DNA from: an uncultured Methylomirabilota bacterium
Lineage (GTDB): Bacteria > Methylomirabilota > Methylomirabilia > Methylomirabilales > 2-02-FULL-66-22
DNA: 64,000 bases
NCBI GenBank assembly: GCA_963705305.1
Contig: OY970067.1
Location: forward strand, 5,568,001 to 5,632,000
Reading direction: 5' to 3'
Position numbers and translations under genes: made by a program. Position 1 is the first letter of the stretch, and every line of letters begins with the position of its first letter. This document shows, piece by piece, positions 17,834 through 46,392 of the stretch. The notes beneath the pieces were generated by a model, which did not search any database, was not told the origin of the DNA, and worked only from the letters and a program-made list of their open reading frames with translations.

Positions 17834-17862
17834 TTGACTCGGTTGGATTCATGAAGGAAAAT
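17834..17862 (+). promoter_or_regulatory. sigma70-type promoter for riboswitch 1
   Basis: TTGACT (17834)-17 nt-GAAAAT (17857), 13 nt before the aptamer; -10 element is weak. Confidence 0.5.
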
Positions 17863-17875
17863 ACACCAAAGAAAT

Positions 17876-17923
17876 GGCGATGGAGTTCGCGGGTCCCCGT
17901 CTGCGCGGGGTGATAACTCCTAC
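17876..17923 (+). ncRNA. Fluoride riboswitch (crcB motif) aptamer 1
   Basis: GGCGATGGAGTTCGC...CCCCG/CGGGG stem...TGATAACTCCTAC; pseudoknot GGAGTT (17882-87) pairs with AACTCC (17915-20). Confidence 0.8.
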
Positions 17924-17951
17924 TGGCAAAGCCAGTGGGGGTTTTTTATTT
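17915..17951 (+). terminator. Intrinsic terminator overlapping aptamer 1 (expression platform)
   Basis: AACTCCTACTGGC-AAA-GCCAGTGGGGGTT hairpin running into TTTTTTATTT. Confidence 0.8.
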
Positions 17952-18111
17952 CGGGGGTTTGACGGCAATTGCCATCGCCTCCCTCCAGACCGCAGGGCGC
18001 GAGGAGGACCGGTGGGCCGTGGCCGCCGGGGGTTCCGCCCCGCCGGACTACCGACCGCCGACTCCGGCCGAGAATCCGACGCCCGTGGACGCCTGAGCCG
18101 GGAGTCGCACT

Positions 18112-18525
18112 GTGCAGCGCAAGCAGCCGACGGTCCGCGATTTGAACAGTCTCGGCGTCCATTTCTACAGCGTCGAGGCCTATGACCTGGCCATCGTTCA
18201 GCTCGAGCAGGCGACCCGCCTGGCGCCGGACGTGGCCTCCATTCACTTCAACCTGGGGGGCGCCTACTACGGGAAGGGGCGTATCGAGGACGCGGAGCGC
18301 GAGTTCCAGGAGGCGCTTGATCTCGACCCCGGCCACGCGCGCGCCCACTGGTTCCACGGCCTCTGCCTGGAGCGGATGGCCCGTCTGGGCGAAGCCCTGG
18401 CGGAATTCCACTGGGTGCGGGAGCATTCGCCGGGGACTCGCGAGGCACGATCCGCTCTCGAGGAGATCCAGGCCATCGCCGCCCTTTCCGGACGGGAAGG
18501 CCGCGGGGCCTCCCTTACCGGATAG
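18112..18525 (+). CDS. TPR-repeat protein
   Basis: LNSLGVHFY, HFNLGGAYY, HWFHGLCL TPR consensus repeats; GTG start. Confidence 0.8.
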   Translation: MQRKQPTVRDLNSLGVHFYSVEAYDLAIVQLEQATRLAPDVASIHFNLGGAYYGKGRIEDAEREFQEALDLDPGHARAHWFHGLCLERMARLGEALAEFHWVREHSPGTREARSALEEIQAIAALSGREGRGASLTG

Positions 18526-18527
18526 CC

Positions 18528-19109
18528 ATGAAGACGGACACTCCTTCATCTCCGACGACTCTGGAACGGGCCGGGTCCGTCCATCCGGATGGATCCCGGT
18601 TGCCGGCGGGGTCTTCGAGCCCGACCCTGAATTCTGAGAGCGTTTCCGGCGCTCTCAACGCCGCCCAAGTCCGCGCGGTGGCGGCCGCGCTCCGAACGTT
18701 GGAGTACGCACTGGATGAGGTCGAGCGCCTGCTGGCCTCGACCACTTCAGGGGTCACGATCCGCTGGCGAGTCGACCTGACCGTCGAGGAGCACCGCCTC
18801 CTCCGGCAACTCACGGCCCAACTCCGGGGGCGGCTGGCCGTCGCCTGCCTCGACCTGGGAATCGGCGCCGACGAACGGTCTGTTCGAGGCGCGATCCGGG
18901 GAACCCTGGCGGTCCTATGGGCCACACTCGAGGACAGTCGGGCAGTGAGTCTCCGCAGCTACGGTCCGCTTCCGGCCGGGGCGGGCTTGGGCCTGGATGC
19001 GACGATGGCGGCGCTCGCGGCGGACGTTGGCCGGATCCTTCGGATAGTGGAAGGAACGGAAGCAGGAGCGCGGGGCCGAGACCGGGGTGCCGCCGGCGCG
19101 GAGGCCTGA
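18528..19109 (+). CDS. Hypothetical helical protein
   Basis: Tightly spaced ORF in operon, amphipathic helices; start uncertain. Confidence 0.55.
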   Translation: MKTDTPSSPTTLERAGSVHPDGSRLPAGSSSPTLNSESVSGALNAAQVRAVAAALRTLEYALDEVERLLASTTSGVTIRWRVDLTVEEHRLLRQLTAQLRGRLAVACLDLGIGADERSVRGAIRGTLAVLWATLEDSRAVSLRSYGPLPAGAGLGLDATMAALAADVGRILRIVEGTEAGARGRDRGAAGAEA

Positions 19110-19113
19110 GGAG

Positions 19114-19908
19114 ATGGACTTCGGAACCTTCGACGGCTTCTGGCATAGGCTCGCCCGGACGCGTCTGCACATGCCCGAGGTGTCGGACCTCGAGGCTGTC
19201 CTGGGACAGGCGATGGGCGCGTGGCGAAGCTGCGTGGTTTGCAACCTTCTCTGGGAGCGGGCCTTTGACCTGACCTCGCGCTGGCAGCAGCTCCTCGCTT
19301 CTGACGCCGCCGCCCAGGCGGACTTCCTGTGCGGGCAGACTTGGTGCAACCGGCATGCCTGGTTCTTCAGCCAGATGATGGCCCCGGTGTCCCAGGCGCG
19401 CTTGCAGCGCCGACTGCACGAGGAGGTGGCGGCCCGGATTCGGGAGCACCTCCAGTCCATCCCGGAGCGTCCGATGGGCGGGGACGCCCGCACGATTCTT
19501 GAATCGCTCATCGGCAGGCGTACCTGTCCCCTGTGCGACGACGAGTCCGCCTTGCTGACGCTGGTCCTGGCCGCGATAGTGCGCGGCCTGACCGCGGGAT
19601 CGCTCCGGCCGGCCTTCGCCGCATCCGCCGGCTGCTGTCTCCCCCATCTGGCCGCCCTGCTGTCCCGCGTCGCCCACAGCGACACCGCCCGTTTCCTGTT
19701 GGAGGCGACCCAGGATCGCCTGGCACGGCTGACGGCGGAGTTGGACTACTACCAGGCGGAGAGCGAAAGCCGGCGGCGGCGGTACGAATCGGCCGCCGAC
19801 GCCCCGGCCCGGGCCCTAGCCGCCTGGGCGGGCCTGCGGGACATGGTGCGGGATTGGGAGGGGACACCGACCGAGTCCCGCCCGCAGCCGGAAGGAGTTA
19901 CGCCGTGA
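19114..19908 (+). CDS. DUF6062-like Cys/His-rich protein (second copy)
   Basis: CVVC/WCNRH and CPLC/CCLPH repeats, same layout as 7510-8364; SD GAGGAG. Confidence 0.65.
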   Translation: MDFGTFDGFWHRLARTRLHMPEVSDLEAVLGQAMGAWRSCVVCNLLWERAFDLTSRWQQLLASDAAAQADFLCGQTWCNRHAWFFSQMMAPVSQARLQRRLHEEVAARIREHLQSIPERPMGGDARTILESLIGRRTCPLCDDESALLTLVLAAIVRGLTAGSLRPAFAASAGCCLPHLAALLSRVAHSDTARFLLEATQDRLARLTAELDYYQAESESRRRRYESAADAPARALAAWAGLRDMVRDWEGTPTESRPQPEGVTP

Positions 19909-19990
19909 CCGCTCCGCTCGAACCAAACAGGGGGCGGTGGGCAGCCGACGAAGCCCTCGCTTCCGCTGATGTCCCCCACGGGATGCGACG

Positions 19991-21247
19991 ATGAACGATC
20001 TCAACGGGAAGGCCGCTGTCGTCTCATCGGTTCCGGCCGATGACCGGTGGTTGAATCGCAATGTCGCGGGGATGGGGATCACCAGCCTGCTGAGCGATTG
20101 GGGACACGAGATGGCCACGGCAATCCTCCCCGGGTTTCTGGCCGCCATCGGCGCTCCGGCCGCGGCCCTGGGCGTCATCGAAGGGGTGGCCGACGCCGTG
20201 TCCAGCTTCGTGAAACTCGGCGCCGGATGGTACACGGATCGGATCGGCCACCGGAAGGTCATCTGCGTAGGCGGTTATTTCCTGACGGGGGTCTCGCAGG
20301 CCATCTTTGCGTTTGCATACAGCTGGCCGCTGGTGCTCGCCGGCCGGACCCTCGGCTGGCTCGGTCGGGGCGTCCGCAGCCCTCTGCGGGACGCCATCCT
20401 GGCGGAGTCCGCGTCCGAGGAGGCGCGTGGGAAGGCCTTCGGCTTTCACCGGGCGGGCGACACGCTGGGCGCTGTTATTGGACCTCTCTGCGCCGTGGGG
20501 CTTCTGGCCCTGCTCCAGGGGCACGCCACCGGCGATCCCTCGTCACCCTTTCGTCTGGTATTCCTCCTGACCATCATCCCGGGTGTCGGATCGGCCCTGG
20601 CCTTCGGCACGGCGGTCCGCGAGCGGCGGCGCGCCCCGAACCGCGGGGTCCGGCTCTGGGCTACGATCCGTAGCCTGCCCCGGGCCTATCGGCGCTGGCT
20701 GGCGGGGGTGGGGATCTTCGGCATCGGGGACTTCGCGCACACCCTGATGATCCTGGCGGCCACGGAACTCCTCACCCCGGCGTACGGCGTGGTGGCGGCG
20801 GCCCAGATGGCTGCCCTGTTCTATGTGGTGCGGAATGTCCTGTACGCCGCCGCCTCTTACCCGATCGGCGCCTTGAGCGACCGCCTGGGTCGCCTCGGGA
20901 TCCTGGTGCTCGGGTATGTCGTCGGCTCCCTGACGGCCGCCGGCCTCGTGGCCGCCTTCGCCTTCTCCTGGCGCCACCCCGTCTACCTTCTCGGGCTCTT
21001 CTGCCTGGGCGGAATCTACATCGCGGCCGAGGATGCCCTGGAGGGCGCCATGACCGCCGACTTCGTCCCTGCCGCGGAATGGCGGGGGATCGCGTACGGG
21101 GTGCTGGGGACGGTCAACGGCGTCGGGGACCTGGCGGCCAGCGTGATCGTCGGCGTCCTCTGGACGGCGGTCTCGCCGGTCCTCGCATTCGCCTATGCGG
21201 CGGCGGCAATGGGCGCGGGCGCCCTGGTTGTCGCCCGCCCGTGCTGA
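19991..21247 (+). CDS. MFS transporter
   Basis: SLLSDWGHEM, GWYTDRIGHRK, GRGVRSPLRDA, GKAFGFHRAGDTLGA, GALSDRLGR; multiple TM segments. Confidence 0.85.
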   Translation: MNDLNGKAAVVSSVPADDRWLNRNVAGMGITSLLSDWGHEMATAILPGFLAAIGAPAAALGVIEGVADAVSSFVKLGAGWYTDRIGHRKVICVGGYFLTGVSQAIFAFAYSWPLVLAGRTLGWLGRGVRSPLRDAILAESASEEARGKAFGFHRAGDTLGAVIGPLCAVGLLALLQGHATGDPSSPFRLVFLLTIIPGVGSALAFGTAVRERRRAPNRGVRLWATIRSLPRAYRRWLAGVGIFGIGDFAHTLMILAATELLTPAYGVVAAAQMAALFYVVRNVLYAAASYPIGALSDRLGRLGILVLGYVVGSLTAAGLVAAFAFSWRHPVYLLGLFCLGGIYIAAEDALEGAMTADFVPAAEWRGIAYGVLGTVNGVGDLAASVIVGVLWTAVSPVLAFAYAAAAMGAGALVVARPC

Positions 21248-21255
21248 GGACTGCG

Positions 21256-22269
21256 ATGCGCCTGGAAAATCTGGCGGCGGGATTGGACGATCTCTCGCGC
21301 AACCGGGAGGCGCTCGCCCTGTTGATCCTGCAGGGCGAACGGGCGGTCCCGGCCCTGGCGCGGATGCTCCTGGGGCCGCCCTCCTCTATCCCGGAGGCGC
21401 GCTGTCTCGCCGCGGAGGGCCTCGGATCGATCGGAGGGGAGGCGGCCGTCAGCGCCCTGATCCGGGTCCTCAGCCTGCACGATCCCCGACGGCTCGACCC
21501 GGTCCTCCGCCTGGCGGAGGAGGCGGTACAGAACCGGGCCGCAGAGCAGCTCGGCAGGATGGGAGACCGGCGGGCCGTCGAGCCGCTGCTGTACGGTCTG
21601 GCACAGGACGGGCTCCGCGAGGCGATGGGCGCGCTGGCCAGGCTCCGGGAGCCGCGGGCCATCCCCCACATCGTTCGGCGCCTGGAAGATCCGTGCGACC
21701 GCGCGGCAGCCGCGGACGCGCTGCTGGCATTCGGCAGCACGGCGGTTCCGGCCCTGACGGCGACACTGACCGAGCAGCACCCCTCTTCCGAGGATGAATC
21801 GCCCATGAGCGCGGAGCGACGCGCCGAGGCCGCACGCCTTCTCGGTACGCTGGGAGCTTCGCAGGCCCTGGAGGCGCTCCGGTCCCGCCTCGATGATCCG
21901 GCTGCGGCTGTCCGGCTCGAGGCCGGCCTCGCACTGGCGGCCCTCACCGGTGGCGACACACCCGATCGGGCGCTGGCGGTCATCGCACAGGGGCTGAACC
22001 ATCCTGGCCCACCGACGGCCCTGCGGTGCATGGACGCAGCTGTCGAGGCCGCCGACCGGAGTATTCCCCATCTCCTTTCTGTCGCTCCACCGAGACGGAC
22101 CGCGGCAGTCGGTCCGCGCCGTCCGGGGGATGATGCGCTCCAGGTGAGCGTGATCGAGACCTTGGAGCGGATCGGCTCGGAAGCAAGCACACGGGCTATC
22201 GAGGAATTCCTTCACGACCGGAGCCCCCTCGTGCGCGAGCGAGCACAGCGGGCGCTGCGGCATCCTTGA
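21256..22269 (+). CDS. HEAT/PBS-lyase repeat protein
   Basis: Repeated AAEQLGRMGDRRAVEPL, ALARLREPRAIPHI, DPAAAVRLEA, SPLVRERA. Confidence 0.8.
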   Translation: MRLENLAAGLDDLSRNREALALLILQGERAVPALARMLLGPPSSIPEARCLAAEGLGSIGGEAAVSALIRVLSLHDPRRLDPVLRLAEEAVQNRAAEQLGRMGDRRAVEPLLYGLAQDGLREAMGALARLREPRAIPHIVRRLEDPCDRAAAADALLAFGSTAVPALTATLTEQHPSSEDESPMSAERRAEAARLLGTLGASQALEALRSRLDDPAAAVRLEAGLALAALTGGDTPDRALAVIAQGLNHPGPPTALRCMDAAVEAADRSIPHLLSVAPPRRTAAVGPRRPGDDALQVSVIETLERIGSEASTRAIEEFLHDRSPLVRERAQRALRHP

Positions 22270-22287
22270 AGGAGAGATAGGCTCCCC

Positions 22288-23823
22288 ATGGCTTTCCACA
22301 GCATACTCTTCAAACGGGCCGAGGACACGCCAACGCAGGACACAATCCAGCCGCCGGTCTTCTGCGTTGACTTGAATCTTGATCAGATCATAAACGCCGT
22401 CACCGCCGGCAGGCAGGAATACAACCTGAAGCCGTATTTCTACACTCCCTTGAGGCAGAAGGACGCGATTGCCTACCGGCATGAAGTATTCCGGGATCTC
22501 GAAGATCCACACCTGCTCGAGAGCGTCGAGTCGTTCGCCCGGAGCATGCGGGTCATGCGCGACCATCTCGCCCAGGCGGAAAAGCTTTATTACACGTATC
22601 AGAAGGAACGCTGGTTCCTGGAGGCGGTGGAGATCTATTGTGACGCGGTGAACCGCCTGATGCAGGAGCTTGCGCTGGTCGACCTGAAATCGCGAGGTTT
22701 TCTGGGCTTCCGGGATTACCTGGCAACGTACGCCCGGTCCGAGGGTTTTACCGCCCTCCTGGCGGACACGAAACAGCTCCTGGCCGACCTGTCTTCCATC
22801 CGCTACTCTCTGATCATCAAGGGGACGTCCGTCACGGTCTGGAAATACGAATCGGAATCCGACTACAGCGTAGACGTTGAGCGGACCTTCGAAAAATTCA
22901 AGCAGGGGGCACCCAAGGACTACCGGGCGAAATTTTCCAGCTCGCCGCAGATGAATCATGTGGAGGCGGCGATTCTGGATCTGCTCGCCAAGCTGTATCC
23001 CGACATCTTCCGACATCTTGACGTGTACTGCGCGAAGAACGCCGAGTATCTGGACGCAACGCTCGCCACCTTCGACCGTGAAGTGGAGTTCTACCTGGCC
23101 TACCTGGCGCATCGCGGCATCTTCACCCGAGCGGGATTGCCGTTTTGCTACCCGGAAGTCTCCGACTCCTCCAAGGACGTCTATGAGCACGAGGGGTTCG
23201 ATCTGGCGCTGGCCGACAAGCTCGTCAAGGAAAAGGCCTCCGTTGTCTGCAACGACTTCTACCTGAAAGACAAGGAGCGCATCCTCGTCGTCACGGGTCC
23301 GAACCAGGGCGGGAAGACCACTTTCGCCCGCGCCTTCGGCCAGCTGCATTTCCTGGCCAGCATCGGCTGCCCGGTGCCGGGCAGGGAGGCGCAGCTCTTT
23401 TTGTTCGACAGGCTCTTTACCCATTTCGAAAAAGAAGAGGACATCCGAAATCTCCGGGGCAAGATGGAAGATGACCTGATCAGGATTTCCGAGATTCTGG
23501 CCCAGGCAACCTCGAACAGCATCGTCATCCTGAACGAGAGCTTCACGGCGACGACGTTGAGCGATGCGATCTTCTTGAGCACTCGAATCCTGGAACGAAT
23601 CCTCCAGCTCGACCTGCTGTGCGTCTGCGTGACCTTCATCGATGAATTGGCGTCGTTGAGCGAGAAGACCGTCAGCGTGGTCGCGGGGGTCGCGCCCGAC
23701 AATCCGGCAGTGCGGACGTACCGAATCATGCGACGGCCCGCGGACGGCGTGGCGTACGCACTGTCTATCGCCGAGAAGTACCGGCTCACGTACGAGTCCG
23801 TCAAGGAGCGCATCCGGCCATGA
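22288..23823 (+). CDS. MutS-domain-V ATPase lacking mismatch-binding domain (copy A)
   Basis: VVCNDF, VVTGPNQGGKTTFAR, LFTHF, ILNESF, VTFIDEL. Confidence 0.85.
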   Translation: MAFHSILFKRAEDTPTQDTIQPPVFCVDLNLDQIINAVTAGRQEYNLKPYFYTPLRQKDAIAYRHEVFRDLEDPHLLESVESFARSMRVMRDHLAQAEKLYYTYQKERWFLEAVEIYCDAVNRLMQELALVDLKSRGFLGFRDYLATYARSEGFTALLADTKQLLADLSSIRYSLIIKGTSVTVWKYESESDYSVDVERTFEKFKQGAPKDYRAKFSSSPQMNHVEAAILDLLAKLYPDIFRHLDVYCAKNAEYLDATLATFDREVEFYLAYLAHRGIFTRAGLPFCYPEVSDSSKDVYEHEGFDLALADKLVKEKASVVCNDFYLKDKERILVVTGPNQGGKTTFARAFGQLHFLASIGCPVPGREAQLFLFDRLFTHFEKEEDIRNLRGKMEDDLIRISEILAQATSNSIVILNESFTATTLSDAIFLSTRILERILQLDLLCVCVTFIDELASLSEKTVSVVAGVAPDNPAVRTYRIMRRPADGVAYALSIAEKYRLTYESVKERIRP

Positions 23824-25322: not shown

Positions 25323-25427
25323 GCTCGGAAGGGCGCGTATGCGGCCACATGGCTGCGGAATGGTCCACAGGCCGCAGAGGAGCTACGTTGTAGGTCGACG
25401 CGCCGATCGGCACAAGGTGCGACGCGA

Positions 25428-26384: not shown

Positions 26385-26850
26385 TCCGCGCTGGTGGAGA
26401 TTCTTTCTGGGGTACCTCCTCTTCGCTGGGCTGCTAGCCCTGGCCCTGACGCCCCTCTATTTCTTGGCGGAGCCTACGCACCGACCGCTGGTCGTCCGCC
26501 TTGGCGCCACCCTGCTTGCCGTGAGCGTCTTGGTCCACCTCCGACGGTTCGTCCGGGCGGCGATCACGTCGCAACCCGCCTCGGCCTTCGACCGGGCGCT
26601 CCGGCCGCTGCCGCCCGAGCGCCACATCGCACCTCTCTTCCTGAAGCTCCGGAACGAGCTGCGGTTCAGCAGAGCCGATTTCGGGTACTTCCAGCGAAAC
26701 CTCTGGCCTCGGATCCTCCGTTTGTCGCGGAGGCGGGTCGGGGGCTCCCTGTCAAAGGCGCCTGAGATGCCGCGGGGAGGATTCTTCCGGCGGGGGCCGT
26801 CGCTGGCTGCCTTTCGCCAGCTTATCTCGCAGATCGAGGAGCGTCCATGA
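26368..26850 (+). CDS. Small membrane protein of MoxR operon
   Basis: Two TM helices; overlaps both neighbours. Confidence 0.6.
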   Translation: MLPPSDPRWWRFFLGYLLFAGLLALALTPLYFLAEPTHRPLVVRLGATLLAVSVLVHLRRFVRAAITSQPASAFDRALRPLPPERHIAPLFLKLRNELRFSRADFGYFQRNLWPRILRLSRRRVGGSLSKAPEMPRGGFFRRGPSLAAFRQLISQIEERP

Positions 26851-30072: not shown

Positions 30073-30078
30073 TATTTT

Positions 30079-35930: not shown

Positions 35931-35942
35931 CGAGGAGACCCC

Positions 35943-38065: not shown

Positions 38066-38072
38066 GCCGCCG

Positions 38073-39650: not shown

Positions 39651-39669
39651 TTGTGAGAGAGGACGGGAC

Positions 39670-40440
39670 ATGACTCAATGGGTTCGCAAGGGGATCTCCA
39701 GCGGGGTGAAGACCACGCGCTATCCTGATGCCGCAGATACGACGCCGGGCCTGTCCCCGGGACTGCCGCTGGGCGGCGGATATCCGGCGGCCGAGATTTC
39801 CTCGCTCGTCGATCGCTGTCCGACCAAGGCGATCAGCGCGAGGGACGCTGGCGGCGTCGCCGTGGATTACCGTCGCTGCATTCACTGCTTCCGGTGCGCC
39901 CGCGGACCGGGCGCGCCGTTGGCCTGGACTCCGGGCTACGAGTGGGGTGCGCGGGGAGGCGAGGTCTCGCCCGATCCTCTGGGCGCCGCCTTCGAGCGGT
40001 CGCTGTACATTCTGGTCGTGGACGCCGGCGACTGCGGGGCCTGCCTGAGCGAGGTCAGACAGCTCAACAATCCCTACTACAACATGCACCGCCTCGGTTT
40101 CTTCATCACCCCGACCCCCCGGCTGGCGGATGTGCTCCTGGTGGTGGGTCCCGTGACCGACCACATGCGGCGCCCCCTGCAGAAGACGTATGAGGCGATG
40201 CCGACGCCGAAGCGGGTGATGGCCGTGGGGGCCTGCGCCCTCTCGGGCGGCGTCTTCGGACCGAGCTTCGTCTCGGGCGCGGGGGTGGCGGAAGTGCTGT
40301 CCGTCGACGTGGCGGTGCCAGGCTCGCCGCCCCCCCCACTGGCCATCCTGCATGGTCTGCTGGTCCTGGCCGGCCGGAGACCCCCCGCCTCGCTTCTGTC
40401 CCCGGCGCAGACAGCGGGTACGGACGGAGGAGGCCGATGA
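39670..40440 (+). CDS. hyfI: HyfI/NuoB-like small subunit with N-terminal ferredoxin-like segment
   Basis: CPT...CIHCFRC, then DAGDCGAC, PRLADVLLVVGPVT, AVGAC, VPGSPP. Confidence 0.85.
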   Translation: MTQWVRKGISSGVKTTRYPDAADTTPGLSPGLPLGGGYPAAEISSLVDRCPTKAISARDAGGVAVDYRRCIHCFRCARGPGAPLAWTPGYEWGARGGEVSPDPLGAAFERSLYILVVDAGDCGACLSEVRQLNNPYYNMHRLGFFITPTPRLADVLLVVGPVTDHMRRPLQKTYEAMPTPKRVMAVGACALSGGVFGPSFVSGAGVAEVLSVDVAVPGSPPPPLAILHGLLVLAGRRPPASLLSPAQTAGTDGGGR

Positions 40441-42599
40441 ACACCCCTGCCGCCGCCTCGATCGGCCTGTTCCTCGCGCTGTGTGCCGCCGGCATTGGGC
40501 TGACGGCCGCGGTCCCGTCGCAGCGCGTCCCGCGGCTCCTGGCCTGGATCGGCGCGATCGCCTCGCTGCCGGTTCTCTGGGCCGGGGGTGCGGTGCTGGC
40601 AACCGGGCAGGTGCTCAGCATGCGCCTGTGGACGATCCCCGCGTGGGGACCGCTGATGTTACAGATGGACCGGCTGGGAGCCGTTTTCGTCATGGTAGCC
40701 GGGATGGTCTTTCTGCCCGTCTCGATCTTCTGTGCGGGCTATCTGCCTCGCTACCTGGGGCGATACAGCCTTCGGATGTTCGGCGGGATGTATCTGGCCC
40801 TGTATGCGTCCATCGTGTTGATTTTCATCGCCGGCGACGTCCTCCTGTTCCTGTTCGCTTGGGAGGCGATGTCGATCCTTACGTATCTCCTCGTGAATTA
40901 TGAGCACGAGGAGGAAGGACACTCCCAAGCCGGTTATGCCATGCTGGCCATCGGCGAGGCGGGAACGGTTGCCATAGCGCTGGGGCTCCTGCTGCTGGCG
41001 GTCGCGGCGGGCTCGTCGGAATTCGCCGCGATGAAGGCGGGCGCGGCTGTACTCGGTCCTGGTGCTCGATGGGGGGTGTTCCTGCTCACGTTCTTCGGAT
41101 TCGGCGTCAAGGCCGGCCTGGTGCCCACGAACTCCTGGCTGCCACGCGCTCATCCCGTGGCGCCGGGAAATGTCTCGGCGCTCCTCTCAGGTGTGGTCTT
41201 GAACCTGGGGATCTATGGAATTGTGCGCGTCAACCTCGACCTCTTGCCCACCAGCGCAATAGGAATGGGGCTCATTGCGCTGACCATCGGAACGATCTCT
41301 GCCGTTTTGGGTATTCTCTACGCCACCACAGAAAACGATCTCAAAGTGATGCTGGCGCACAGCTCGATCGAGAACATCGGCATCGTGACTGCCGGGCTGG
41401 GGGCAGGCTTTGTATTTACCGCCACCGGGCATTCGAGCTTGGCCGTCATCGCCCTTGTCGCTGCGCTCTACCACATGGTGAACCATTCGATCTACAAGTC
41501 GCTCCTCTTCCTCGGGACGGTAACTGTCGATTCGCAGACCGGAACGCGCGACCTGGACTTGCTCGGAGGGCTCATTCGTCGTATGCCATGGACGGCTCTG
41601 CTTTTCCTGGTCGGGGCACTCTCGATTGCGGCCATGCCGCCGTTCAACGGGTTTGTGAGCGAATGGCTGATGTTGCAGACGGTGCTGCGCAGCGTGGAGC
41701 TGTCATCCGTCGGCGCGAAGCTGGTGTTTGCCGTGTGCGGCGCGGGCCTGGCATTGACCGCCGCACTGGCAGTGACCTGTTTTGTGAAGGCGTTTGCCAT
41801 GGGGTTCCTGGGCATGTCCCGCTCTCCTCAGGCTCGGCGGGCCACGGAAGCACGTGTGTCCGCTCTGGCGCCGATGGCGCTGCTGGCAGCGCTCTGCCTT
41901 GGATTGGGCGTGTTGCCGACCTACGTCATCCCGGTCCTCAGCGAGGCACTGGCGCCTCTGGCGCAAGCCAGCGCAGCGGACGCGCTGGTGCCTCCGTTCT
42001 TCGCCGGCAGTCCGGGACATGCGAGCCTCCCGCGAGGGTTTGCGGTGGAATTCCATGACCTGGGCGCCCAGGTGGGGCAGCACCTCCTGCCGGGCCGCGG
42101 GCTGGTGGTGCTTCATCGGGGCGGACCCGAAAATCCCGTGGTATTCGCCATGTCCACCTCGTACTCCCTGGTGGTCCTGGCACTGCTGCTGGGGCTGGTG
42201 TATGGCCTGGTGGGAGTCTGGGCGGCGCGACGCCGCCGGCTGGTCCGACGGGCGTGCTGGGACGGCGGCGTCGACCGCTTGCTGCCGGAAATGACGTACA
42301 CCGCCACGGGCTTCTCGAATCCGGTGCGAGTCATTTTCGACGCCGTATTCCGCCCCACGATGGCCAGGGAGGGACCAGAGACCGTAGCCAGCCACTTCCG
42401 GATGGCCATCCAGAAGGGGCGCCAGGAGACCTATATCGTCGACCGGCTCTTCCTTCATCCGGTCCGGCGCGGGGCCATGGCGGTCGCCCGCCAGTTGGCG
42501 AGGATGCACAACGGCCGAGTCAACGCGTATATCGGGTACGTCCTCGCCGCCCTGCTGCTGGTCTTGCTGGCGGCCTGGCTCGGAGGGGCCGCGGGCTGA
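40437..42599 (+). CDS. hyfB: Hydrogenase-4/Ehr antiporter-like subunit B
   Basis: FAWEAMS, GFGVKAGLVP..WLPRAHPVAP, LAHSSIENIG, PPFNGFVSEW, YTATGFS. Confidence 0.85.
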   Translation: MNTPAAASIGLFLALCAAGIGLTAAVPSQRVPRLLAWIGAIASLPVLWAGGAVLATGQVLSMRLWTIPAWGPLMLQMDRLGAVFVMVAGMVFLPVSIFCAGYLPRYLGRYSLRMFGGMYLALYASIVLIFIAGDVLLFLFAWEAMSILTYLLVNYEHEEEGHSQAGYAMLAIGEAGTVAIALGLLLLAVAAGSSEFAAMKAGAAVLGPGARWGVFLLTFFGFGVKAGLVPTNSWLPRAHPVAPGNVSALLSGVVLNLGIYGIVRVNLDLLPTSAIGMGLIALTIGTISAVLGILYATTENDLKVMLAHSSIENIGIVTAGLGAGFVFTATGHSSLAVIALVAALYHMVNHSIYKSLLFLGTVTVDSQTGTRDLDLLGGLIRRMPWTALLFLVGALSIAAMPPFNGFVSEWLMLQTVLRSVELSSVGAKLVFAVCGAGLALTAALAVTCFVKAFAMGFLGMSRSPQARRATEARVSALAPMALLAALCLGLGVLPTYVIPVLSEALAPLAQASAADALVPPFFAGSPGHASLPRGFAVEFHDLGAQVGQHLLPGRGLVVLHRGGPENPVVFAMSTSYSLVVLALLLGLVYGLVGVWAARRRRLVRRACWDGGVDRLLPEMTYTATGFSNPVRVIFDAVFRPTMAREGPETVASHFRMAIQKGRQETYIVDRLFLHPVRRGAMAVARQLARMHNGRVNAYIGYVLAALLLVLLAAWLGGAAG

Positions 42600-42675: not shown

Positions 42676-42704
42676 TTGACATGCCCCAGACCGGCGCCTA
42701 AACT
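42676..42704 (+). promoter_or_regulatory. sigma70-type promoter for riboswitch 4
   Basis: TTGACA-17 nt-TAAACT. Confidence 0.75.
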
Positions 42705-42714
42705 CTTGATGGGT

Positions 42715-42760
42715 GGGGATGGAGTCCCCCGTAACCGCCTCACCGGCTGATGACTCCTAC
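42715..42760 (+). ncRNA. Fluoride riboswitch (crcB motif) aptamer 4, canonical
   Basis: GGGGATGGAGTCCCCCGTAACCGCC-TCACC-GGCTGATGACTCCTAC: P1, AACC linker, P2 and pseudoknot all present. Confidence 0.92.
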
Positions 42761-42836
42761 CGAGGCCTTTGTCGGCCGGAGTTTCGACCTGTGAGGAAGA
42801 GCAGCTCCTGCAGGCGACGGCCTGGAGGAGTTTTTT

Positions 42837-44531
42837 ATGGACGCGATCAGGTCCGCACCGCCTGCATCCCTGGGAGGCCCGCTCCACCCCTCACCGCCAT
42901 CGGCGCTGGAGGAGGTCGGGGCGATCTGCCGCCGGTTTCGCCTCGACGCCCTGCGGCCACAGCTCGACGCCTGCACCGCGCTCCTGCAGGATGGGGAGGT
43001 GGTCGACGTCGCCGTGGTGGGACGCTTCAAGGCCGGGAAGAGCTCCTTCCTGAACAGCGTCGTAGGCGGGGACTTGTTGCCGGTGGCCGCCCTGCCTCTC
43101 ACGGCCGTGATCACCCGCCTGCGCTATGGTGCGAGCGACCGCTCGGTGGTCAAACATTTGGATGGCACCGAGCGGGAGATCCCCGTGGACGACCTCCGCG
43201 AGTACGTCACGGAACAGCGGAACCCCGCCAACACCAAGGCCGTCGCCATGGTCGAGGTGGAGCTATCCTCCCTACGGCCCTACCAGGGGATCCGCTTCGT
43301 GGACACGCCGGGCCTGGGCAGCGTCTTCACCCACAACACCCGCGCCTCGATGGATTGGCTGCCGCGGATCGGGGCGGCGCTCCTTGCGATCAGCGCCGAC
43401 CAGCCCCTGTCGGAGCATGATATGACCTTGCTGGCCGAGCTGGCCAAGCACACGCCGGAGATCTCGATCCTTCTCACCAAGGCGGATCTGGTGAGCTCCG
43501 GCGAGCTCGCGGACATCATCCGCTTCATCAGGGATCAGGTCGGCTCGACAATCCCCGGTGCGGTGCGCGTACTGCCTTTCTCCGTACGGCCCGGGTTCGA
43601 GCCCCAGCGTGCCGGGGTCCGGGAGTACCTGCTTGGGCGAGTTGCCGAGCACCACGAAGAGACCTCCAGGAGCATCCTCCGGTACAAACTCCAGCGGCTG
43701 ACGGCTGACTGCCGGCAGTACCTGGAGGTGGCGCTGGCAGCGGCCTCGGCGGCGGCGGAGGCGCGGACGCGGCTGCAGGAAGCGCTCCGGCGGGAACGGA
43801 CCCAGCTGGAGGCCGTGGGGAATGAGATCCGGATCGTGGCGCAGGACCTCAAGGGTCGGCTGATGGCAGACGCGCTGGAGCGATACGTCGCCCACACCCG
43901 CGAGCTCGTGGCGAGTTTGACGGCCGGGCTGCGGGCCGCCATGCCCGGGTGGAGAGGCGACCTGCGTAAGACGGCCGAACAGTTCGCCCAGTGGACCTAT
44001 GAGGCCATCGAAGAACAGCTTGGCCCGCATTCCCACCAACACGGAGAGGAGCTGATCGCGCGGCACCTGACGTCCGCCCAGGCCAGCCTTTCCCGTGTGG
44101 TGCAGGCCTTCCAGGACCGATTGGCACAGGCGGTCGCGGAGGCGCTCCATACGCCATTCGCGGGGGCCCGCTTCGATGCCGCGGTCCGGTCCCCCGAGCG
44201 GCCGGACGTCCGGGTGAGCCGGGTCTTCGACATTCCGTTCGAGATCCTCTGGTTCCTGATCCCCATGACCGTCTTCCGCCCCCTGGTGAACCGGCACTTC
44301 GTCCGCAGGCTCCCCTGGGAGGTTGAGAAGAATCTCCACCGATTGGCGATGCAGTGGGCGCAAGCCATCGGAGCCTCCATCGACGATCTGGCCCGCCAGG
44401 CGCGGGAGTTCATGTGGGAGGAGCTGGCCACCATCGACCGGTTGGTGTCCGAGAGCCAGGACCAGCGACCGGCCCTGGAGGGCGCCCTGGCGACGCTGGA
44501 GGCCGTCGGGCGAGCGGGTGAGGAGCAATAG
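42837..44531 (+). CDS. Dynamin-like (BDLP/Dynamin_N) GTPase
   Basis: G1 GRFKAGKSS, G2 PLT, G3 DTPG, G4 TKAD; long helical C-terminus with hydrophobic paddle FEILWFLIPM. Confidence 0.85.
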   Translation: MDAIRSAPPASLGGPLHPSPPSALEEVGAICRRFRLDALRPQLDACTALLQDGEVVDVAVVGRFKAGKSSFLNSVVGGDLLPVAALPLTAVITRLRYGASDRSVVKHLDGTEREIPVDDLREYVTEQRNPANTKAVAMVEVELSSLRPYQGIRFVDTPGLGSVFTHNTRASMDWLPRIGAALLAISADQPLSEHDMTLLAELAKHTPEISILLTKADLVSSGELADIIRFIRDQVGSTIPGAVRVLPFSVRPGFEPQRAGVREYLLGRVAEHHEETSRSILRYKLQRLTADCRQYLEVALAAASAAAEARTRLQEALRRERTQLEAVGNEIRIVAQDLKGRLMADALERYVAHTRELVASLTAGLRAAMPGWRGDLRKTAEQFAQWTYEAIEEQLGPHSHQHGEELIARHLTSAQASLSRVVQAFQDRLAQAVAEALHTPFAGARFDAAVRSPERPDVRVSRVFDIPFEILWFLIPMTVFRPLVNRHFVRRLPWEVEKNLHRLAMQWAQAIGASIDDLARQAREFMWEELATIDRLVSESQDQRPALEGALATLEAVGRAGEEQ

Positions 44532-44778
44532 GCGTGAGGCGCGGCCGGCCTGTACGTCCGCGCTTCGGTGCCCGCCGAGGAATGCGCGCAGACCGCATGG
44601 ATGGCCACGCCGGAGAAGTCCCGCGTCCGAAATGAACTACCCCGCGGCAAGTCGCGGGGGATGAACCCTCATGGATTCACCCGGTCCCGCAAGTCCCAGA
44701 ATTCTTCACCATAGGCCCCGTCCGGCGATTCTCCCCCGTGCCCCTCTGATCGGATTCACGATGTGATATGATCCCCGC

Positions 44779-46392
44779 ATGACCAACCAGATGCTCTTCA
44801 CGCTCTTCGGCGGGACGGCCCTCCTGCTCTACGGGATGCAGCTCGTCCGCGAGGGCCTCCAGACCGTGGCCGGCGGGCGGATGCGCCAGATCCTCGGATC
44901 CATGACCGGGAACCGCGTGAAGGGGGTGCTGGCAGGCGCCTTCGTCACGGCCGTCGTGCAATCCTCCGGTGCGACGACCCTCATGCTGGTGGGATTCGCC
45001 AATTCCGGCCTGATCAGTCTTGCCCAGAGCATCGGCGTGATCCTGGGCGCGGACATCGGCACCACCTTCACCGTCCAACTGATCTCGTTCCAGATCTTCG
45101 AGTATGCCCTCCTCCTGACGGGCGTGGGCTTCCTCCTGATCTTCGTCTGCAAGCGCAGGATCCTGAAGTCCACCGGTCAGGCGATCCTGGGGTTCAGCCT
45201 GATCTTCCTGTCTATCGAGTACATGGCCAAGGCCATGGCGCCGCTCCGCGACAGCGAGGTGGTCCGCATCCTCCTCGCTTCGCTTGGGCAGCAGCCGATC
45301 CTTGGCGTGTGCGTGGGGGCGGCCCTCGCCGCGCTGGTCCTCAGCTCCGCCGCCACCATCGGCCTCGTCCTCACCCTGGCCCTACAGGGGATCCTGAGTC
45401 TCCAGTCGGCCATCCCGATCGTCCTCGGAGCCAACATCGGCACCTGCGCCACGGCGCTGGCCGGCTCCATCGGAACGACGACCGTGGCGCGGCGGGTGGC
45501 CCTCGCCCACATCCTGTTCAAGGTGGCGGGGACCCTGGTGTTCCTGCCGTTCCTCGGCCCGTTTGCCCGTGCGGTGCAATGGACCGCGGCCGATACGGCG
45601 CGGCAGATCGCCAACGCCCACACGCTCTTCAACCTCGTGATCACTGTCGCCTTCCTCCCCTTCACCCCGCTCTTCGCCACCCTGCTCGCGCATCTGGTGC
45701 CCGAGGCGCAGGCGAGGGACGGCGTTTTCGGCGCAAGATACCTCGAGGAGCGGATGCTGGACACGCCGGCGCTGGCCCTCGGGCAGGCAACGCGCGAGGC
45801 GCTCCGTGTGGGGGATATCGTCTCGGAGATGCTCGCCCAGAGCCTACCGGCCCTGTCCCGGAACGATCCCGATCTCGTGGAATTCATCAAGGAGAAAGAC
45901 AATCAGGTGGATGCCCTCTACCGGGATATCAAGCACTACCTCACCCGGCTCTCCGGAGAGCGGCTCACCGACACCCAGGCGCGGCGCAAGATGACCATCC
46001 TCGCCTTCGCCGACAACATGGAGAGCATCGGCGACATCGTGGACCGTAACCTCATGGAGCTGGCCAAGAAGCGACTGCGGAGGGGCGTGCGCTTCTCCGA
46101 CCCCGGGATCCAGGAGATCGGGGCGCTGCACAAGCAGGTGCTCGAGAGCGCGGAGCTGGCGATCGCCGCCTTCGGAAGCAGCGATATGATCCTGGCTCGG
46201 CGCGTCCTGGATCAGAAGCAGGAAATCGGGCGGAACGGACGGATGCTCCGTCAGGCGCACATCCAGCGGCTGCACGACGGGCTGCGGGAGTCGATGGAGA
46301 CCAGCGAGATCCACCTGGACATCCTCACCAACCTCCAGCGGATCAGCTCGCACCTCGGCGCGATCGCCGTCCCAATCCTGGAAAGCGCCTAG
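44779..46392 (+). CDS. Na/Pi cotransporter family protein with C-terminal PhoU domains
   Basis: VQSSGAT, GADIGTT, GANIGT, IANAHTLFN, NMESIGD, HIQRL. Confidence 0.88.
   Translation: MTNQMLFTLFGGTALLLYGMQLVREGLQTVAGGRMRQILGSMTGNRVKGVLAGAFVTAVVQSSGATTLMLVGFANSGLISLAQSIGVILGADIGTTFTVQLISFQIFEYALLLTGVGFLLIFVCKRRILKSTGQAILGFSLIFLSIEYMAKAMAPLRDSEVVRILLASLGQQPILGVCVGAALAALVLSSAATIGLVLTLALQGILSLQSAIPIVLGANIGTCATALAGSIGTTTVARRVALAHILFKVAGTLVFLPFLGPFARAVQWTAADTARQIANAHTLFNLVITVAFLPFTPLFATLLAHLVPEAQARDGVFGARYLEERMLDTPALALGQATREALRVGDIVSEMLAQSLPALSRNDPDLVEFIKEKDNQVDALYRDIKHYLTRLSGERLTDTQARRKMTILAFADNMESIGDIVDRNLMELAKKRLRRGVRFSDPGIQEIGALHKQVLESAELAIAAFGSSDMILARRVLDQKQEIGRNGRMLRQAHIQRLHDGLRESMETSEIHLDILTNLQRISSHLGAIAVPILESA

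What the first reader, a model, noticed from the sequence alone, without database searches (positions are those of the whole stretch)
17834..46392. ~28-kb island with four fluoride riboswitches: a large, multi-operon fluoride regulon
Seen: four copies of GGnnAyGGAGTy...TGATrACTCCTAC (17876, 30079, 32596, 42715), each just after a TTGACn-17-(-10) promoter, with all downstream genes on the + strand. The copies covary. The pseudoknot is GGAGTT/AACTCC in copy 1 and GGAGTC/GACTCC in the others, and P1 is GCGA/TCGC, GGCG/TGCC, GGCA/TGCC and GGGG/CCCC. Established: this is the crcB/fluoride riboswitch fold, and enolase, formate-hydrogenlyase-like, MutS-like and MFS genes are reported associates. Inference: four switches in one block, also heading TPR, HEAT, DUF6062-like, MoxR/DUF58, AAA and dynamin genes, point to a fluoride-stress programme much broader than export. 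Many of the products are Mg-dependent NTPases or phospho-enzymes, the class inhibited by metal-fluoride phosphate mimics.
Basis: partly seen in the sequence, partly recalled or inferred. Interest (0 to 1): 0.92.

Follow-up and report, generated by a model that had tools for sequence, protein, structure and literature searches.

The report
Four-switch fluoride response gene island
Four fluoride-sensing RNA switches sit in one 28-kb row of genes in an uncultured soil or sediment bacterium that has no known fluoride channel, and the same little-known gene families follow such switches in many other bacteria, pointing to a fluoride response wider than export.

Summary
Four crcB-motif (RF01734) aptamers lie where stated, each just after a TTGACn-17-(-10) promoter, and they are the only four in the 5.6-Mb genome. 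Two pass Rfam's gathering score (57.4 and 38.6 bits). Two do not (26.1 and 24.0 bits). Copy 1 belongs to a genus-wide variant class with a long P3, and all 14 members carry a terminator that overlaps the pseudoknot strand. Copy 2 heads decayed genes.

The regulon reading is supported by comparison, not by expression data. In relatives and in other phyla the same families recur behind fluoride switches, often several switches per locus. These are DUF6062, a dynamin-like GTPase, a second enolase, a MutS-like pair, MFS, MoxR/DUF58 and a Hyf-like membrane complex.

Additions from this follow-up:
- The genome has no CrcB.
- The "formate hydrogenlyase" large subunit lacks the NiFe cysteines.
- That six-gene cluster has no orthologue in 250 other genomes of the phylum, so it was probably acquired.
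- Base composition shows no island.

This scan has reported fluoride-switched dynamin/DUF6062 clusters before on other DNA. I found no paper describing them. Verdict: a real, extended variant of a known kind. Interest 0.6.

The parts
17834..17862 (+). Promoter-like site 1 (TTGACT-17-GAAAAT)
17867..17929 (+). Aptamer copy 1: genus-specific variant of the fluoride riboswitch (short P1, long G+C-rich P3)
   Evidence: RF01734 26.1 bits, below the gathering score of 34. Genus-tuned model 68.3 bits. Fourteen class members in the genus.
17915..17950 (+). Intrinsic terminator whose 5' arm is the 3' pseudoknot strand (expression platform of copy 1)
   Evidence: 13-bp stem plus U run. Fold z = -4.21. 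Kept in 14 of 14 class members.
18112..29909 (+). Operon 1, 13 genes: TPR 18112-18525; unknown 18528-19109; DUF6062-like 19114-19908; MFS 19991-21247; HEAT 21256-22269; MutS-domain-V ATPase pair 22288-23823 and 23820-25322; DUF4129 membrane protein 25428-26384; unknown membrane protein 26368-26850; MoxR AAA+ 26847-27803; DUF58 27800-29077; six-TM protein 29074-29610; unknown 29607-29909
   Evidence: Pfam, NCBIfam, GC3 frames. Gaps are at most 105 nt, with five 4-nt start/stop overlaps and one 17-nt overlap.
30044..30072 (+). Promoter-like site 2 (TTGACG-17-TAGATT)
30070..30131 (+). Aptamer copy 2: core kept, P3 atypical; a paralogue of the copy 3 module
   Evidence: RF01734 24.0 bits, below gathering. 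Genus-tuned model 50.1 bits. Promoter, aptamer and platform align with copy 3.
30566..32499 (+). Decayed cargo of switch 2: C-terminal half of a cytidylate-kinase-like gene (30566-30904) and an AAA ATPase gene (31003-32499) split over two frames
   Evidence: Pfam, frames. One 1-nt gap and one 2-nt gap against the intact 503-aa orthologue of a relative.
32561..32589 (+). Promoter-like site 3 (TTGACG-17-TAAATT)
32587..32649 (+). Aptamer copy 3 (canonical)
   Evidence: RF01734 38.6 bits
33076..34344 (+). Second enolase (eno2), behind a 427-nt leader
   Evidence: TIGR01060 646 bits. 61.5% identical to the other enolase of the genome; orthologues in relatives are 85-86% identical.
34980..42599 (+). 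Six-gene Hyf-like membrane complex without NiFe ligands: HyfC-like 34980-35930, HyfE-like 35943-36635, HyfF-like 36632-38065, fused NuoC/D-HycE-like 38073-39650, NuoB/HycG-like 39670-40440, HyfB-like 40437-42599. Separated from eno2 by a 635-nt non-coding spacer.
   Evidence: No orthologue in 250 other genomes of the phylum.
42676..42704 (+). Promoter-like site 4 (TTGACA-17-TAAACT)
42706..42766 (+). Aptamer copy 4 (canonical, best score)
   Evidence: RF01734 57.4 bits
42767..42836 (+). Expression platform of copy 4: a GGAGUU segment can pair with the aptamer's 3' strand. A second hairpin then holds the GGAGGAG ribosome site and ends in a U run directly before the ATG.
   Evidence: fold z = -3.33, sequence. 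The relay itself is inferred.
42837..44531 (+). Dynamin-like GTPase
   Evidence: Dynamin_N 77.8 bits
44779..46392 (+). Na/Pi cotransporter-PhoU fusion, 247 nt after the dynamin gene; control by switch 4 is uncertain

Best explanation
This is a multi-unit fluoride stress regulon in a bacterium of the phylum Methylomirabilota. Four transcription units lie head to tail, each with its own sigma-70-type promoter and a fluoride riboswitch aptamer starting within about ten bases of the -10 element. When fluoride (as a Mg-F complex) is bound, the pseudoknot GGAGUY:RACUCC holds the 3' strand of the aptamer. Without fluoride that strand is free to form a competing helix. In unit 1 the competing helix is a 13-bp intrinsic terminator. 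In unit 4 the strand is first caught by a GGAGUU segment, which leaves a hairpin that sequesters the ribosome-binding site and ends in a U run. In unit 3 it pairs with an AGGAGUC segment. All four should therefore be ON switches.

The cargo is a tolerance kit rather than a channel:
- a spare enolase;
- a Hyf-like ion-translocating membrane complex that is not a hydrogenase;
- an MFS transporter and a Na/Pi-PhoU transporter;
- a MutS-like ATPase pair;
- a MoxR-DUF58-DUF4129 chaperone-like set;
- a two-site Cys3His protein (DUF6062-like), with TPR and HEAT partners;
- a dynamin-like membrane GTPase.

Unit 2 is a duplicate of the unit 3 control module placed in front of genes that are now broken. 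The Hyf-like cluster together with the switch that follows it was probably acquired from another phylum.

Shown: aptamers, promoters, terminator, gene content and cross-genome linkage. Inferred: fluoride binding, induction, the relay in unit 4, the extent of each transcript, and every protein function in fluoride stress.
For: Aptamers are supported, and the structure is supported by covariation. For the unit 1 platform (terminator kept in 14 of 14 class members). Tight gene packing is shown.

Same-genus genomes place the same genes behind fluoride switches in other orders:
- One relative runs switch, unknown, DUF6062-like, HEAT, MFS, enolase, DUF4129, MoxR, DUF58, with a second switch before the MutS pair.
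- Another runs switch, dynamin, DUF6062, enolase, DUF4129..DUF58, dynamin, Na/Pi.

DUF6062 loci from other phyla:
- 27 model hits fall in 22 of 80 loci, all on the gene's strand.
- Rfam at gathering score finds a switch upstream in 15 of 17 preselected loci and 2 of 17 unselected loci.
- These operons also hold CrcB, DUF190, Na/H exchangers, Usp, pyrophosphatase and enolase.
- Neighbours of DUF6062 in the 80 loci: enolase 8, dynamin 6, MFS 5, MoxR 5, DUF58 2, MutS pair 2.

Orthologues of the Hyf-like cluster in metagenome contigs:
- 71 model hits fall in 42 of 80 loci.
- A switch lies less than 450 nt before the first gene in 31 of 43 testable loci.
- Rfam at gathering score finds 23 switches in 10 of 10 loci checked, up to 4 per locus.
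- One contig reads switch, switch, Hyf x6, switch, DUF6062 x3, enolase.

No CrcB is found in this genome or in 17 of 18 same-genus genomes searched. None of the four CLC loci has a switch.
Against: There are no RNA data. No RNA run holds the locus, so induction is unshown. Copies 1 and 2 score below Rfam's gathering cut-off. The platforms of copies 2 and 3 lack a clear terminator, and the fold of copy 2 is no better than shuffles (z = -0.20). Unit 2 carries broken genes. A 635-nt spacer precedes the Hyf-like genes and holds no switch remnant. A 247-nt spacer precedes the Na/Pi gene.

The window's own bona fide DUF6062 gene (7510-8364, minus strand) has no switch. Twelve of 43 Hyf-like loci and most Chloroflexota DUF6062 loci show no switch. 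I did not see linkage of Na/Pi-PhoU outside the genus. MoxR/DUF58 linkage outside the genus is thin: 5 and 2 of 80 DUF6062 loci and none of the 80 Hyf-like loci. Related genomes and near-duplicate metagenome contigs are not independent counts.
Confidence: 0.8

Rival explanations
1. Only the promoter-proximal genes are fluoride-controlled. The long rows are several transcription units that merely lie side by side, so the MoxR/DUF58 block, the Hyf-like complex and the Na/Pi transporter are neighbours, not regulon members.
For: Spacers of 105 nt (25323-25427), 635 nt (34345-34979) and 247 nt (44532-44778) could hold promoters. In other genomes the Hyf-like cluster has its own switch directly upstream (31 of 43 loci), and that switch is missing here. 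Na/Pi-PhoU was seen beside this gene set only within the genus.
Against: No terminator-like site with a convincing U run lies in those spacers. Within the blocks the genes overlap by 4 nt. The same families sit behind switches elsewhere, so their link to fluoride does not depend on this one transcript.
Confidence: 0.3
2. Copies 1 and 2 are not working fluoride sensors. Copy 1's class has drifted to another ligand or to constitutive behaviour, and copy 2 is a decaying duplicate.
For: Both score below the Rfam gathering cut-off, with the loss in the linker and P3 region. Copy 2 heads pseudogene-like cargo and its platform folds no better than shuffled sequence.
Against: Both keep the invariant core and a fully paired pseudoknot. 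Copy 1's class is conserved in 14 loci of the genus with an intact overlapping terminator. It also heads the same families (DUF6062, dynamin) that canonical, above-threshold switches head in other phyla.
Confidence: 0.2
3. The four motifs are chance matches and the block is an ordinary run of unrelated genes.
For: None beyond the two sub-threshold scores.
Against: E-values reach 2.8e-13. The four are the only hits in 5.6 Mb and lie within 25 kb. All four sit at the same distance from a promoter-like site. Covariation supports the fold. Linkage recurs across genomes.
Confidence: 0.01

Closest known systems
Classical fluoride riboswitch units (crcB motif, RF01734) before crcB/Fluc or eriC-F/CLC-F genes
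   Same: Same aptamer fold (P1, P3, six-base-pair pseudoknot and conserved core). Same ON logic, with a terminator overlapping the 3' pseudoknot strand as described for the motif (Weinberg 2010, passages).
   Different: No fluoride channel gene follows any of the four, and none was found in the genome. Four units are chained in one block. Two aptamers are sub-threshold variants with a changed linker and P3.
The fluoride 'super-regulon' inferred from riboswitch neighbours (Weinberg 2010; Baker 2012, not held and recalled only; review PMC11139923)
   Same: Enolase, mutS-like genes and 'formate hydrogen lyase' genes are named associates. Phosphate transport is functionally linked to fluoride tolerance.
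   Different: In the passages read I did not find DUF6062, dynamin-like GTPase, MoxR-DUF58-DUF4129, TPR or HEAT proteins or Na/Pi-PhoU. Full-text searches gave 0 papers for 'DUF6062' and 0 for 'fluoride riboswitch' with 'dynamin'. 'Fluoride riboswitch' with 'MoxR' gave 1 paper, an oral Megasphaera genome paper judged unrelated from its listing and not read. Baker 2012 and its supplement could not be read and may list some of these.
E. coli formate hydrogenlyase / hydrogenase-4 (Hyc/Hyf) and hydrogenase-related complexes without a NiFe site
   Same: Same subunit families (HyfB/C/E/F, HycE, HycG). The best solved match is FHL subunit 5, 7z0s_E, E 8.1e-60.
   Different: Where HycE has Cys in the two CxxC motifs, this protein has Ser and Glu, keeping one Cys of four. 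All 120 of 120 family members have no Cys in the last 15 residues. The small subunit has PGSPP where, from recall, NuoB/HycG homologues carry a cluster-ligand Cys in PGCPP; I made no alignment to a homologue here. No formate dehydrogenase or ferredoxin subunit is in the cluster. That these Cys are the NiFe ligands is recalled knowledge.
Earlier findings of this scan on other genomes (e1-1479335, e1-4546452, e1-3536113, e1-5219970, e1-7659946)
   Same: Fluoride switches heading dynamin-like GTPases, DUF6062 zinc-type proteins, HEAT/TPR partners and Pup, sometimes with several switches per cluster and no channel gene.
   Different: New here: four switches; a sub-threshold genus variant with a conserved terminator; the Hyf-like complex without NiFe ligands and its switch-flanked synteny in metagenomes; MoxR-DUF58-DUF4129; a decayed duplicate unit.

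Membership tests
Fluoride riboswitch (crcB motif, RF01734) | Covariance-model score at or above Rfam's gathering score (operational cut-off, 34 bits): copies 3 and 4 | tested here: met
   38.6 and 57.4 bits
Fluoride riboswitch (crcB motif, RF01734) | Covariance-model score at or above Rfam's gathering score: copies 1 and 2 | tested here: not met
   26.1 and 24.0 bits. Per-genome E-values are 9.5e-5 and 4.7e-4. I therefore call them variants of the family, not plain members.
Fluoride riboswitch (crcB motif, RF01734) | P1 helix enclosing the GAUGGnGUY loop, with covariation | tested here: met
   93.8% of cells are paired and 3 of 4 pairs show double changes on 40 distinct sequences. All four window copies pair, but copy 1 has a G-G mismatch at the outer pair.
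Fluoride riboswitch (crcB motif, RF01734) | Six-base-pair pseudoknot between the P1 loop and the 3' tail | tested here: met
   100% of cells are paired and 3 of 6 pairs show compensatory changes. Copy 1 has U-A where copies 2-4 have C-G.
Fluoride riboswitch (crcB motif, RF01734) | P3 hairpin directly before UGAUrACUCCUAC, joined to P1 by the conserved A-rich linker | tested here: inconclusive
   Copies 3 and 4 fit the model. Copy 1 has a 5-7-bp G+C-rich P3 and a G-rich linker. Copy 2 has an atypical P3.
Fluoride riboswitch (crcB motif, RF01734) | Expression platform that competes with the 3' pseudoknot strand | tested here: met
   Copy 1 has a terminator. Copy 4 has a two-hairpin relay (inferred). 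Copies 2 and 3 have only a competing helix and no clear terminator.
Fluoride riboswitch (crcB motif, RF01734) | Selective binding of fluoride with Mg2+ | not testable with these tools
   Needs in-line probing or ITC.
[NiFe] hydrogenase group 4 / formate hydrogenlyase | Four Cys ligands of the NiFe site in the large subunit (two CxxC motifs) | tested here: not met
   Aligned to E. coli FHL subunit 5, the second Cys of the first motif is Ser and the first Cys of the last motif is Ser. The C-terminus has no Cys, and the same holds in 120 of 120 homologues. I therefore do not file it as a hydrogenase.
DUF6062 (PF19538) | Pfam score over the cut-off (27 bits) | tested here: not met
   The gene at 19087-19908 scores 23 bits. 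The gene at 7510-8364 (minus strand) scores 75.3 bits.
DUF6062 (PF19538) | Two CxxC...CxxH sites invariant in the family | tested here: met
   C49, C52, C87, H90, C147, C150, C184 and H187 of the 19087-19908 protein are invariant in 52 sequences. I call it a divergent member.
Fluc/CrcB fluoride channel (PF02537) | A CrcB gene in the locus or genome | tested here: not met
   0 matches in the genome, which is 98.9% complete.
CLC-F fluoride/proton antiporter | CLC gene with the F-type selectivity motifs, or a CLC gene behind a fluoride switch | tested here: inconclusive
   Four CLC genes all lie outside the window. None has a switch within 1.5 kb. None shows the F-type motifs as I recall them, but the motifs are recalled and not taken from a model.

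The most novel reading that the evidence does not exclude
In lineages that have lost the Fluc channel, fluoride defence rests on a riboswitch-controlled tolerance module that is conserved across phyla and travels as a multi-switch island. Its parts would be DUF6062 zinc proteins working with a dynamin-like GTPase, a Hyf-like complex that has given up hydrogen chemistry and acts as an ion or proton pump, a MoxR-DUF58 remodelling set, a spare enolase, and an MFS transporter that is the missing fluoride (or HF-linked) exporter.
Probability: 0.3. Interest if true: 0.8.

Novelty: new variant of a known kind. Interest (0 to 1): 0.6.

Why it matters
Fluoride riboswitches are among the best natural markers of a stress regulon, because whatever follows them is very likely part of the cell's answer to fluoride. 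This block, read together with the related loci, puts several uncharacterised families on that list with cross-phylum support: DUF6062, a dynamin-like GTPase, a Hyf-like complex without a NiFe site, and MutS-like ATPase pairs. MoxR-DUF58 joins them on thinner evidence. It also shows a lineage that keeps four switches while lacking the known channel.

That gives testable candidates for two open questions. First, what bacteria do about fluoride besides exporting it. Second, what the long-noted 'formate hydrogenlyase' and 'mutS' neighbours of this riboswitch really are. It also bears on engineering fluoride tolerance for organofluorine degradation, the application discussed in review PMC11139923.

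Tried and rejected
- Extra switch copies. I searched with a genus-tuned covariance model over the window and 17 relatives' loci, in the 390-nt gap before the window's other DUF6062 gene, and with filters off in the 635-nt spacer before the Hyf-like genes. None was found.
- Conserved elements or gene remnants in the leaders and spacers. Nothing was found.
- Structure of the DUF6062-like protein. The AlphaFold2 model has mean pLDDT 87.8 and is all-helical. Foldseek against the PDB gave no match at E <= 0.001. VIA-align against 48,161 chains gave a best Z of 6.0 over 70 residues, within the noise for helical models. No fold assignment follows.
- Expression. No RNA holder is listed for the locus.
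- Checking the two frameshifts of the AAA gene with reads. The only DNA holder is kept as short contigs. It has no cover over 31336-31919, and among the 8 of 63 pieces listed none spans 31985. Pseudogene versus assembly error therefore stays open.
- CLC-F identification by motif. It rests on recalled motifs and is only a lead.
- Baker et al. 2012 is not held, so its list of associated genes could not be checked.
- A complex prediction for dynamin with DUF6062 was considered and not run. This report does not claim that they bind.
- ORFs 18182-18637, 34498-34911 and 46443-47726 were first treated as genes and then dropped on third-position GC and Pfam evidence.

Full report
**1. The observation**

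Rfam's covariance models, run over the whole window, report the fluoride riboswitch family RF01734 at 42706-42766 (57.4 bits) and 32587-32649 (38.6 bits). Both are above the gathering score of 34. Scans of the two other places with permissive filters give RF01734 as the top hit at 17867-17929 (26.1 bits, E 2.8e-05 for 401 nt) and 30070-30131 (24.0 bits, E 1.4e-04). Both are below gathering. The loss of score lies in the linker and P3, while the loop and tail motifs are kept.

A search of the whole 5,645,311-base genome, in which the window is 5568001-5632000 of a single contig, finds these four and nothing else at E <= 1. Each aptamer begins a few bases after a promoter-like site with a 17-nt spacer.

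**2. Are the weak copies real?**

RF01734 matches occur at E <= 0.01 in 14 of 20 same-genus genomes, with 0-3 matches each. Aligning them with the window's four shows that copy 1 belongs to a conserved class. It has a four-base-pair P1, a G-rich linker, and a 5-7-bp G+C-rich P3 directly before the conserved 3' tail.

A model built from 23 of these sequences scores the four window copies at 50-68 bits. It finds no fifth copy in the window or in 17 downstream loci of relatives. Training sequences match by construction.

On 40 distinct aptamers aligned to that model:
- P1 is 93.8% paired, and 3 of 4 pairs change on both sides.
- The pseudoknot is 100% paired, and 3 of 6 pairs change on both sides (for example A-U to G-C, U-A to C-G).
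- All five measures exceed 500 of 500 shuffles, and all slid registers score lower.
- P3 counts are poor (57-62% paired) because the two P3 types do not align. The alignment also leans toward the model.

All 14 members of the copy 1 class carry a 13-bp hairpin followed by five to seven U. Its 5' arm is the pseudoknot's 3' strand. This hairpin shows only one-sided changes, as expected for close kin.

**3. Expression platforms**

- Copy 1: terminator at 17915-17943 plus U run, with fold z = -4.21. This is the classical ON design.
- Copy 4: the minimum-energy fold pairs GACUCC with a GGAGUU segment at about 42779. A second hairpin then sequesters GGAGGAG and ends in six U directly before the ATG at 42837 (z = -3.33). 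GGAGUU can also pair with the 5' arm of that second hairpin, which suggests a three-part relay. The relay is my inference.
- Copy 3: the 3' strand pairs with an AGGAGUC segment (z = -2.36), but the enolase start is 427 nt further on.
- Copy 2: a similar helix, no better than shuffles (z = -0.20).

Copies 2 and 3 align over promoter, aptamer and platform. They are duplicates of one module.

**4. The genes**

Frames were chosen by third-position GC and annotated with Pfam and NCBIfam.

Unit 1 (18112-29909) holds 13 genes:
- TPR protein
- an unknown protein
- a DUF6062-like protein
- MFS transporter
- HEAT-repeat protein
- two tandem proteins with only MutS domain V
- DUF4129
- a small membrane protein
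- MoxR
- DUF58
- a six-TM protein
- a 100-aa protein

Gaps in unit 1 are at most 105 nt, with five 4-nt overlaps and one 17-nt overlap.

Unit 2 holds only the C-terminal half of a cytidylate-kinase-like gene and an AAA ATPase gene read in two frames. Against the intact 503-aa orthologue of a relative (78% DNA identity) it has one 1-nt and one 2-nt gap about 240 nt apart. I could not decide between decay and assembly error.

Unit 3 holds a second enolase, 61.5% identical to the enolase at genome position 581552-582406. Its own orthologues in relatives are 85-86% identical. After a 635-nt spacer come six Hyf-like genes.

Unit 4 holds a dynamin-like GTPase and, 247 nt later, a Na/Pi-PhoU transporter. 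The + strand block ends at 46392, and minus-strand ABC genes follow.

GC is 0.60-0.72 along the whole window, so there is no compositional island.

**5. The 'formate hydrogenlyase'**

The large subunit's best solved relative is E. coli FHL subunit 5 (7z0s_E, E 8.1e-60). In the alignment, the second Cys of the first CxxC motif and the first Cys of the last motif are both Ser here. The C-terminus ends without any Cys.

Among the 120 proteins on hand (the query and the 119 best homologues, 63-71% identical), none has a Cys in the last 15 residues. Ninety of them carry the two commonest N-terminal motif variants, which hold no Cys. The small subunit has Ser (PGSPP) at the site where, from recall, homologues carry a cluster-ligand Cys in PGCPP; no alignment to a homologue was made here.

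That these Cys are the NiFe ligands is established knowledge that I recall. On that basis the complex is not a hydrogenase. I read it as an ion-translocating, complex-I-like module.

**6. Comparative test within the genus**

Downstream of switches in relatives the same proteins recur in other orders (tblastn; Pfam):
- One genome has switch, unknown, DUF6062-like, HEAT, MFS, enolase, DUF4129, small protein, MoxR, DUF58, six-TM protein. A second switch precedes the MutS pair.
- Another has switch, dynamin, DUF6062, enolase, the DUF4129-to-DUF58 block, a second dynamin and Na/Pi.
- Others have a switch directly before DUF6062, once fused to a Na/H exchanger.

Five of the 17 fetched downstream stretches had no match to the window's proteins. 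Pfam later showed a DUF6062 gene directly after the switch in one of them (L051). The other four hold other genes, such as ABC transport, Usp and ZIP.

**7. Beyond the genus**

A scan of one genome per species for DUF6062 returned 80 loci (151 relatives found, best 80 kept). They come from Methylomirabilota and Rokubacteria, Chloroflexota, Thermotogota, Syntrophaceae, Chthonomonas and others. The nearest are titled Candidatus Methylomirabilis or Methylomirabilales, which fixes the taxon.

- My model finds 27 matches in 22 of the 80 loci, all on the strand of the gene.
- Rfam at its gathering score confirms 18 switches in 15 of 17 loci chosen from those hits.
- Rfam finds 2 of 17 in a set not chosen that way.
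- One Rokubacteria locus has three switches within 3.4 kb.
- The operons combine DUF6062 (often in tandem pairs) with CrcB, DUF190, Na/H exchangers, Usp, pyrophosphatase, enolase, MFS, dynamin and Pup.

The DUF6062 family has eight invariant Cys/His residues in two CxxC...CxxH sites. It gives a confident all-helical model with no recognisable solved relative.

**8. Origin of the Hyf-like cluster**

The large subunit has no close orthologue in 20 genus genomes (best 30-34% identity). It also has none at E <= 1e-90 in 250 other genomes of the phylum. Many 63-71% identical proteins exist in MAGs labelled Verrucomicrobiae, Acidobacteriota and Burkholderiales.

In 80 metagenome loci with orthologues:
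- My model finds 71 matches in 42 loci.
- In 31 of 43 loci with enough upstream sequence, a match lies less than 450 nt before the first gene of the cluster on its strand.
- Eighteen loci have two or more matches.
- Rfam at gathering score confirms 23 switches in all 10 loci tested, up to four per locus.
- The layout 'last Hyf gene, switch, next unit' seen at 42599/42706 recurs there. Nearby lie DUF6062 genes, enolase, MutS pairs, dynamin and MFS.
- Several of these contigs are near-duplicates, so the counts are upper bounds on independent cases.

I conclude that the cluster, probably with its trailing switch, came in by transfer. Multi-switch fluoride islands are a recurrent architecture.

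**9. How unusual are four switches?**

In a sample of 151 genomes of the phylum, 42 have a match at E <= 0.001. Only this genome and one other reach four, and the other has all four within 4.3 kb. That tally includes one unpublished genome, G216, on which nothing else rests.

**10. No known exporter**

CrcB is not found in this genome, which is 98.9% complete. It is also not found in 17 of 18 same-genus genomes searched. The one exception lies right after a canonical switch and appears split over two frames. Another genus of the order has CrcB in 8 of 17 genomes.

Four CLC genes lie elsewhere in the genome. None has a switch, and none shows the F-type motifs as I recall them. The MFS gene, whose relatives follow switches in other phyla, is the best candidate for an exporter. 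This is inference only.

**11. Literature**

- Weinberg et al. 2010 (passages read) name mutS, K+ or Cl- transport and formate hydrogen lyase genes, and describe overlapping terminators.
- The review PMC11139923 (passages read) lists exporters, Na/H antiporters, pyrophosphatase, HAD enzymes, enolase, formate hydrogen lyase, chorismate mutase and phosphate import.
- Sherlock and Breaker 2020 (passages read) speak of a large super-regulon.
- Full-text searches returned the following:
  - 0 papers for 'DUF6062'.
  - 0 for 'fluoride riboswitch' with 'dynamin'.
  - 1 for 'fluoride riboswitch' with 'MoxR'. By its listing it is a genome paper on an oral Megasphaera strain, and I judged it unrelated without reading it.
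  - 0 for 'fluoride riboswitches' with hydrogenase, genome and multiple.
  - None of the 15 papers listed (of 776 holding at least two terms) linked the switch to Methylomirabilis, Rokubacteria or Acidobacteria.
- Baker et al. 2012 is not held, and its supplement may list some of these families.
- Earlier notes of this scan describe fluoride-switched dynamin/DUF6062 clusters on other genomes. I reached the same linkage from this window's relatives before reading them.

**12. Verdict**

The block is a real, extended variant of a known kind of system.

What it adds:
- a sub-threshold aptamer variant with a conserved terminator;
- a channel-less lineage with four switches;
- a non-hydrogenase Hyf-like complex as a mobile, switch-flanked member;
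- further support for DUF6062, dynamin-like and MutS-like proteins as fluoride-response families, and thinner support for MoxR/DUF58.

Noticed in passing
window 7510-8364 (-): A bona fide DUF6062 gene (75.3 bits) lies 10 kb upstream of the block, in a minus-strand row, with a 390-nt upstream gap and no detectable fluoride switch. In a same-genus relative its 47%-identical homologue sits directly after a switch-controlled dynamin gene, so here the pair seems to have been separated.
   Followed up: partly
window 30997-32499 (+): An AAA ATPase gene is read in two frames. Against an intact orthologue it has a 1-nt gap near 31746 and a 2-nt gap near 31985. It could be a pseudogene or indel errors of a long-read assembly. 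The reads on hand did not cover the place.
   Followed up: partly
window 30030-30170 and 32547-32690 (+): Promoter, aptamer and platform of copies 2 and 3 are duplicates of one module, alignable throughout. This points to a local duplication of a whole control element.
   Followed up: partly
window 34345-34979: A 635-nt stretch between the enolase and the Hyf-like genes has no coding signal, no switch remnant and no conserved match, except a 98-nt, 69%-identical stretch in one relative's locus.
   Followed up: partly
window 44640-44659: A perfect 7-bp G+C hairpin sits in the 247-nt spacer between the dynamin and Na/Pi genes. On the minus strand it scans as terminator-like. A TATGAT box lies 5 nt before the Na/Pi ATG, which may mean a leaderless transcript.
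   Followed up: no
window 42743: One contig of the only public DNA run holding the locus has an extra A behind 42743, inside the P3 loop of aptamer 4 (depth 2 of 7.5). This is probably strain variation in a tolerant loop.
   Followed up: no
G010:C7:2236-2659: The only CrcB gene found in 18 same-genus genomes lies right after a canonical switch and matches the profile in two pieces in different frames. It may be a broken gene.
   Followed up: no
L080:1230-4849: In a Syntrophaceae MAG a group II intron (RF02005, 186 bits, 2965-3189) lies between a fluoride switch with DUF4129-type genes and the DUF6062 gene.
   Followed up: no
L071:2234-5474 and L074:4828-5235: A Pup-like protein directly follows a fluoride switch and precedes DUF6062, a Na/H exchanger and Usp. 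A Pup-ligase fragment follows DUF6062 in another locus.
   Followed up: no
window 3276-5654 (-): A family B DNA polymerase gene lies next to a DUF2007 gene in the same minus-strand row as the unswitched DUF6062 gene.
   Followed up: no
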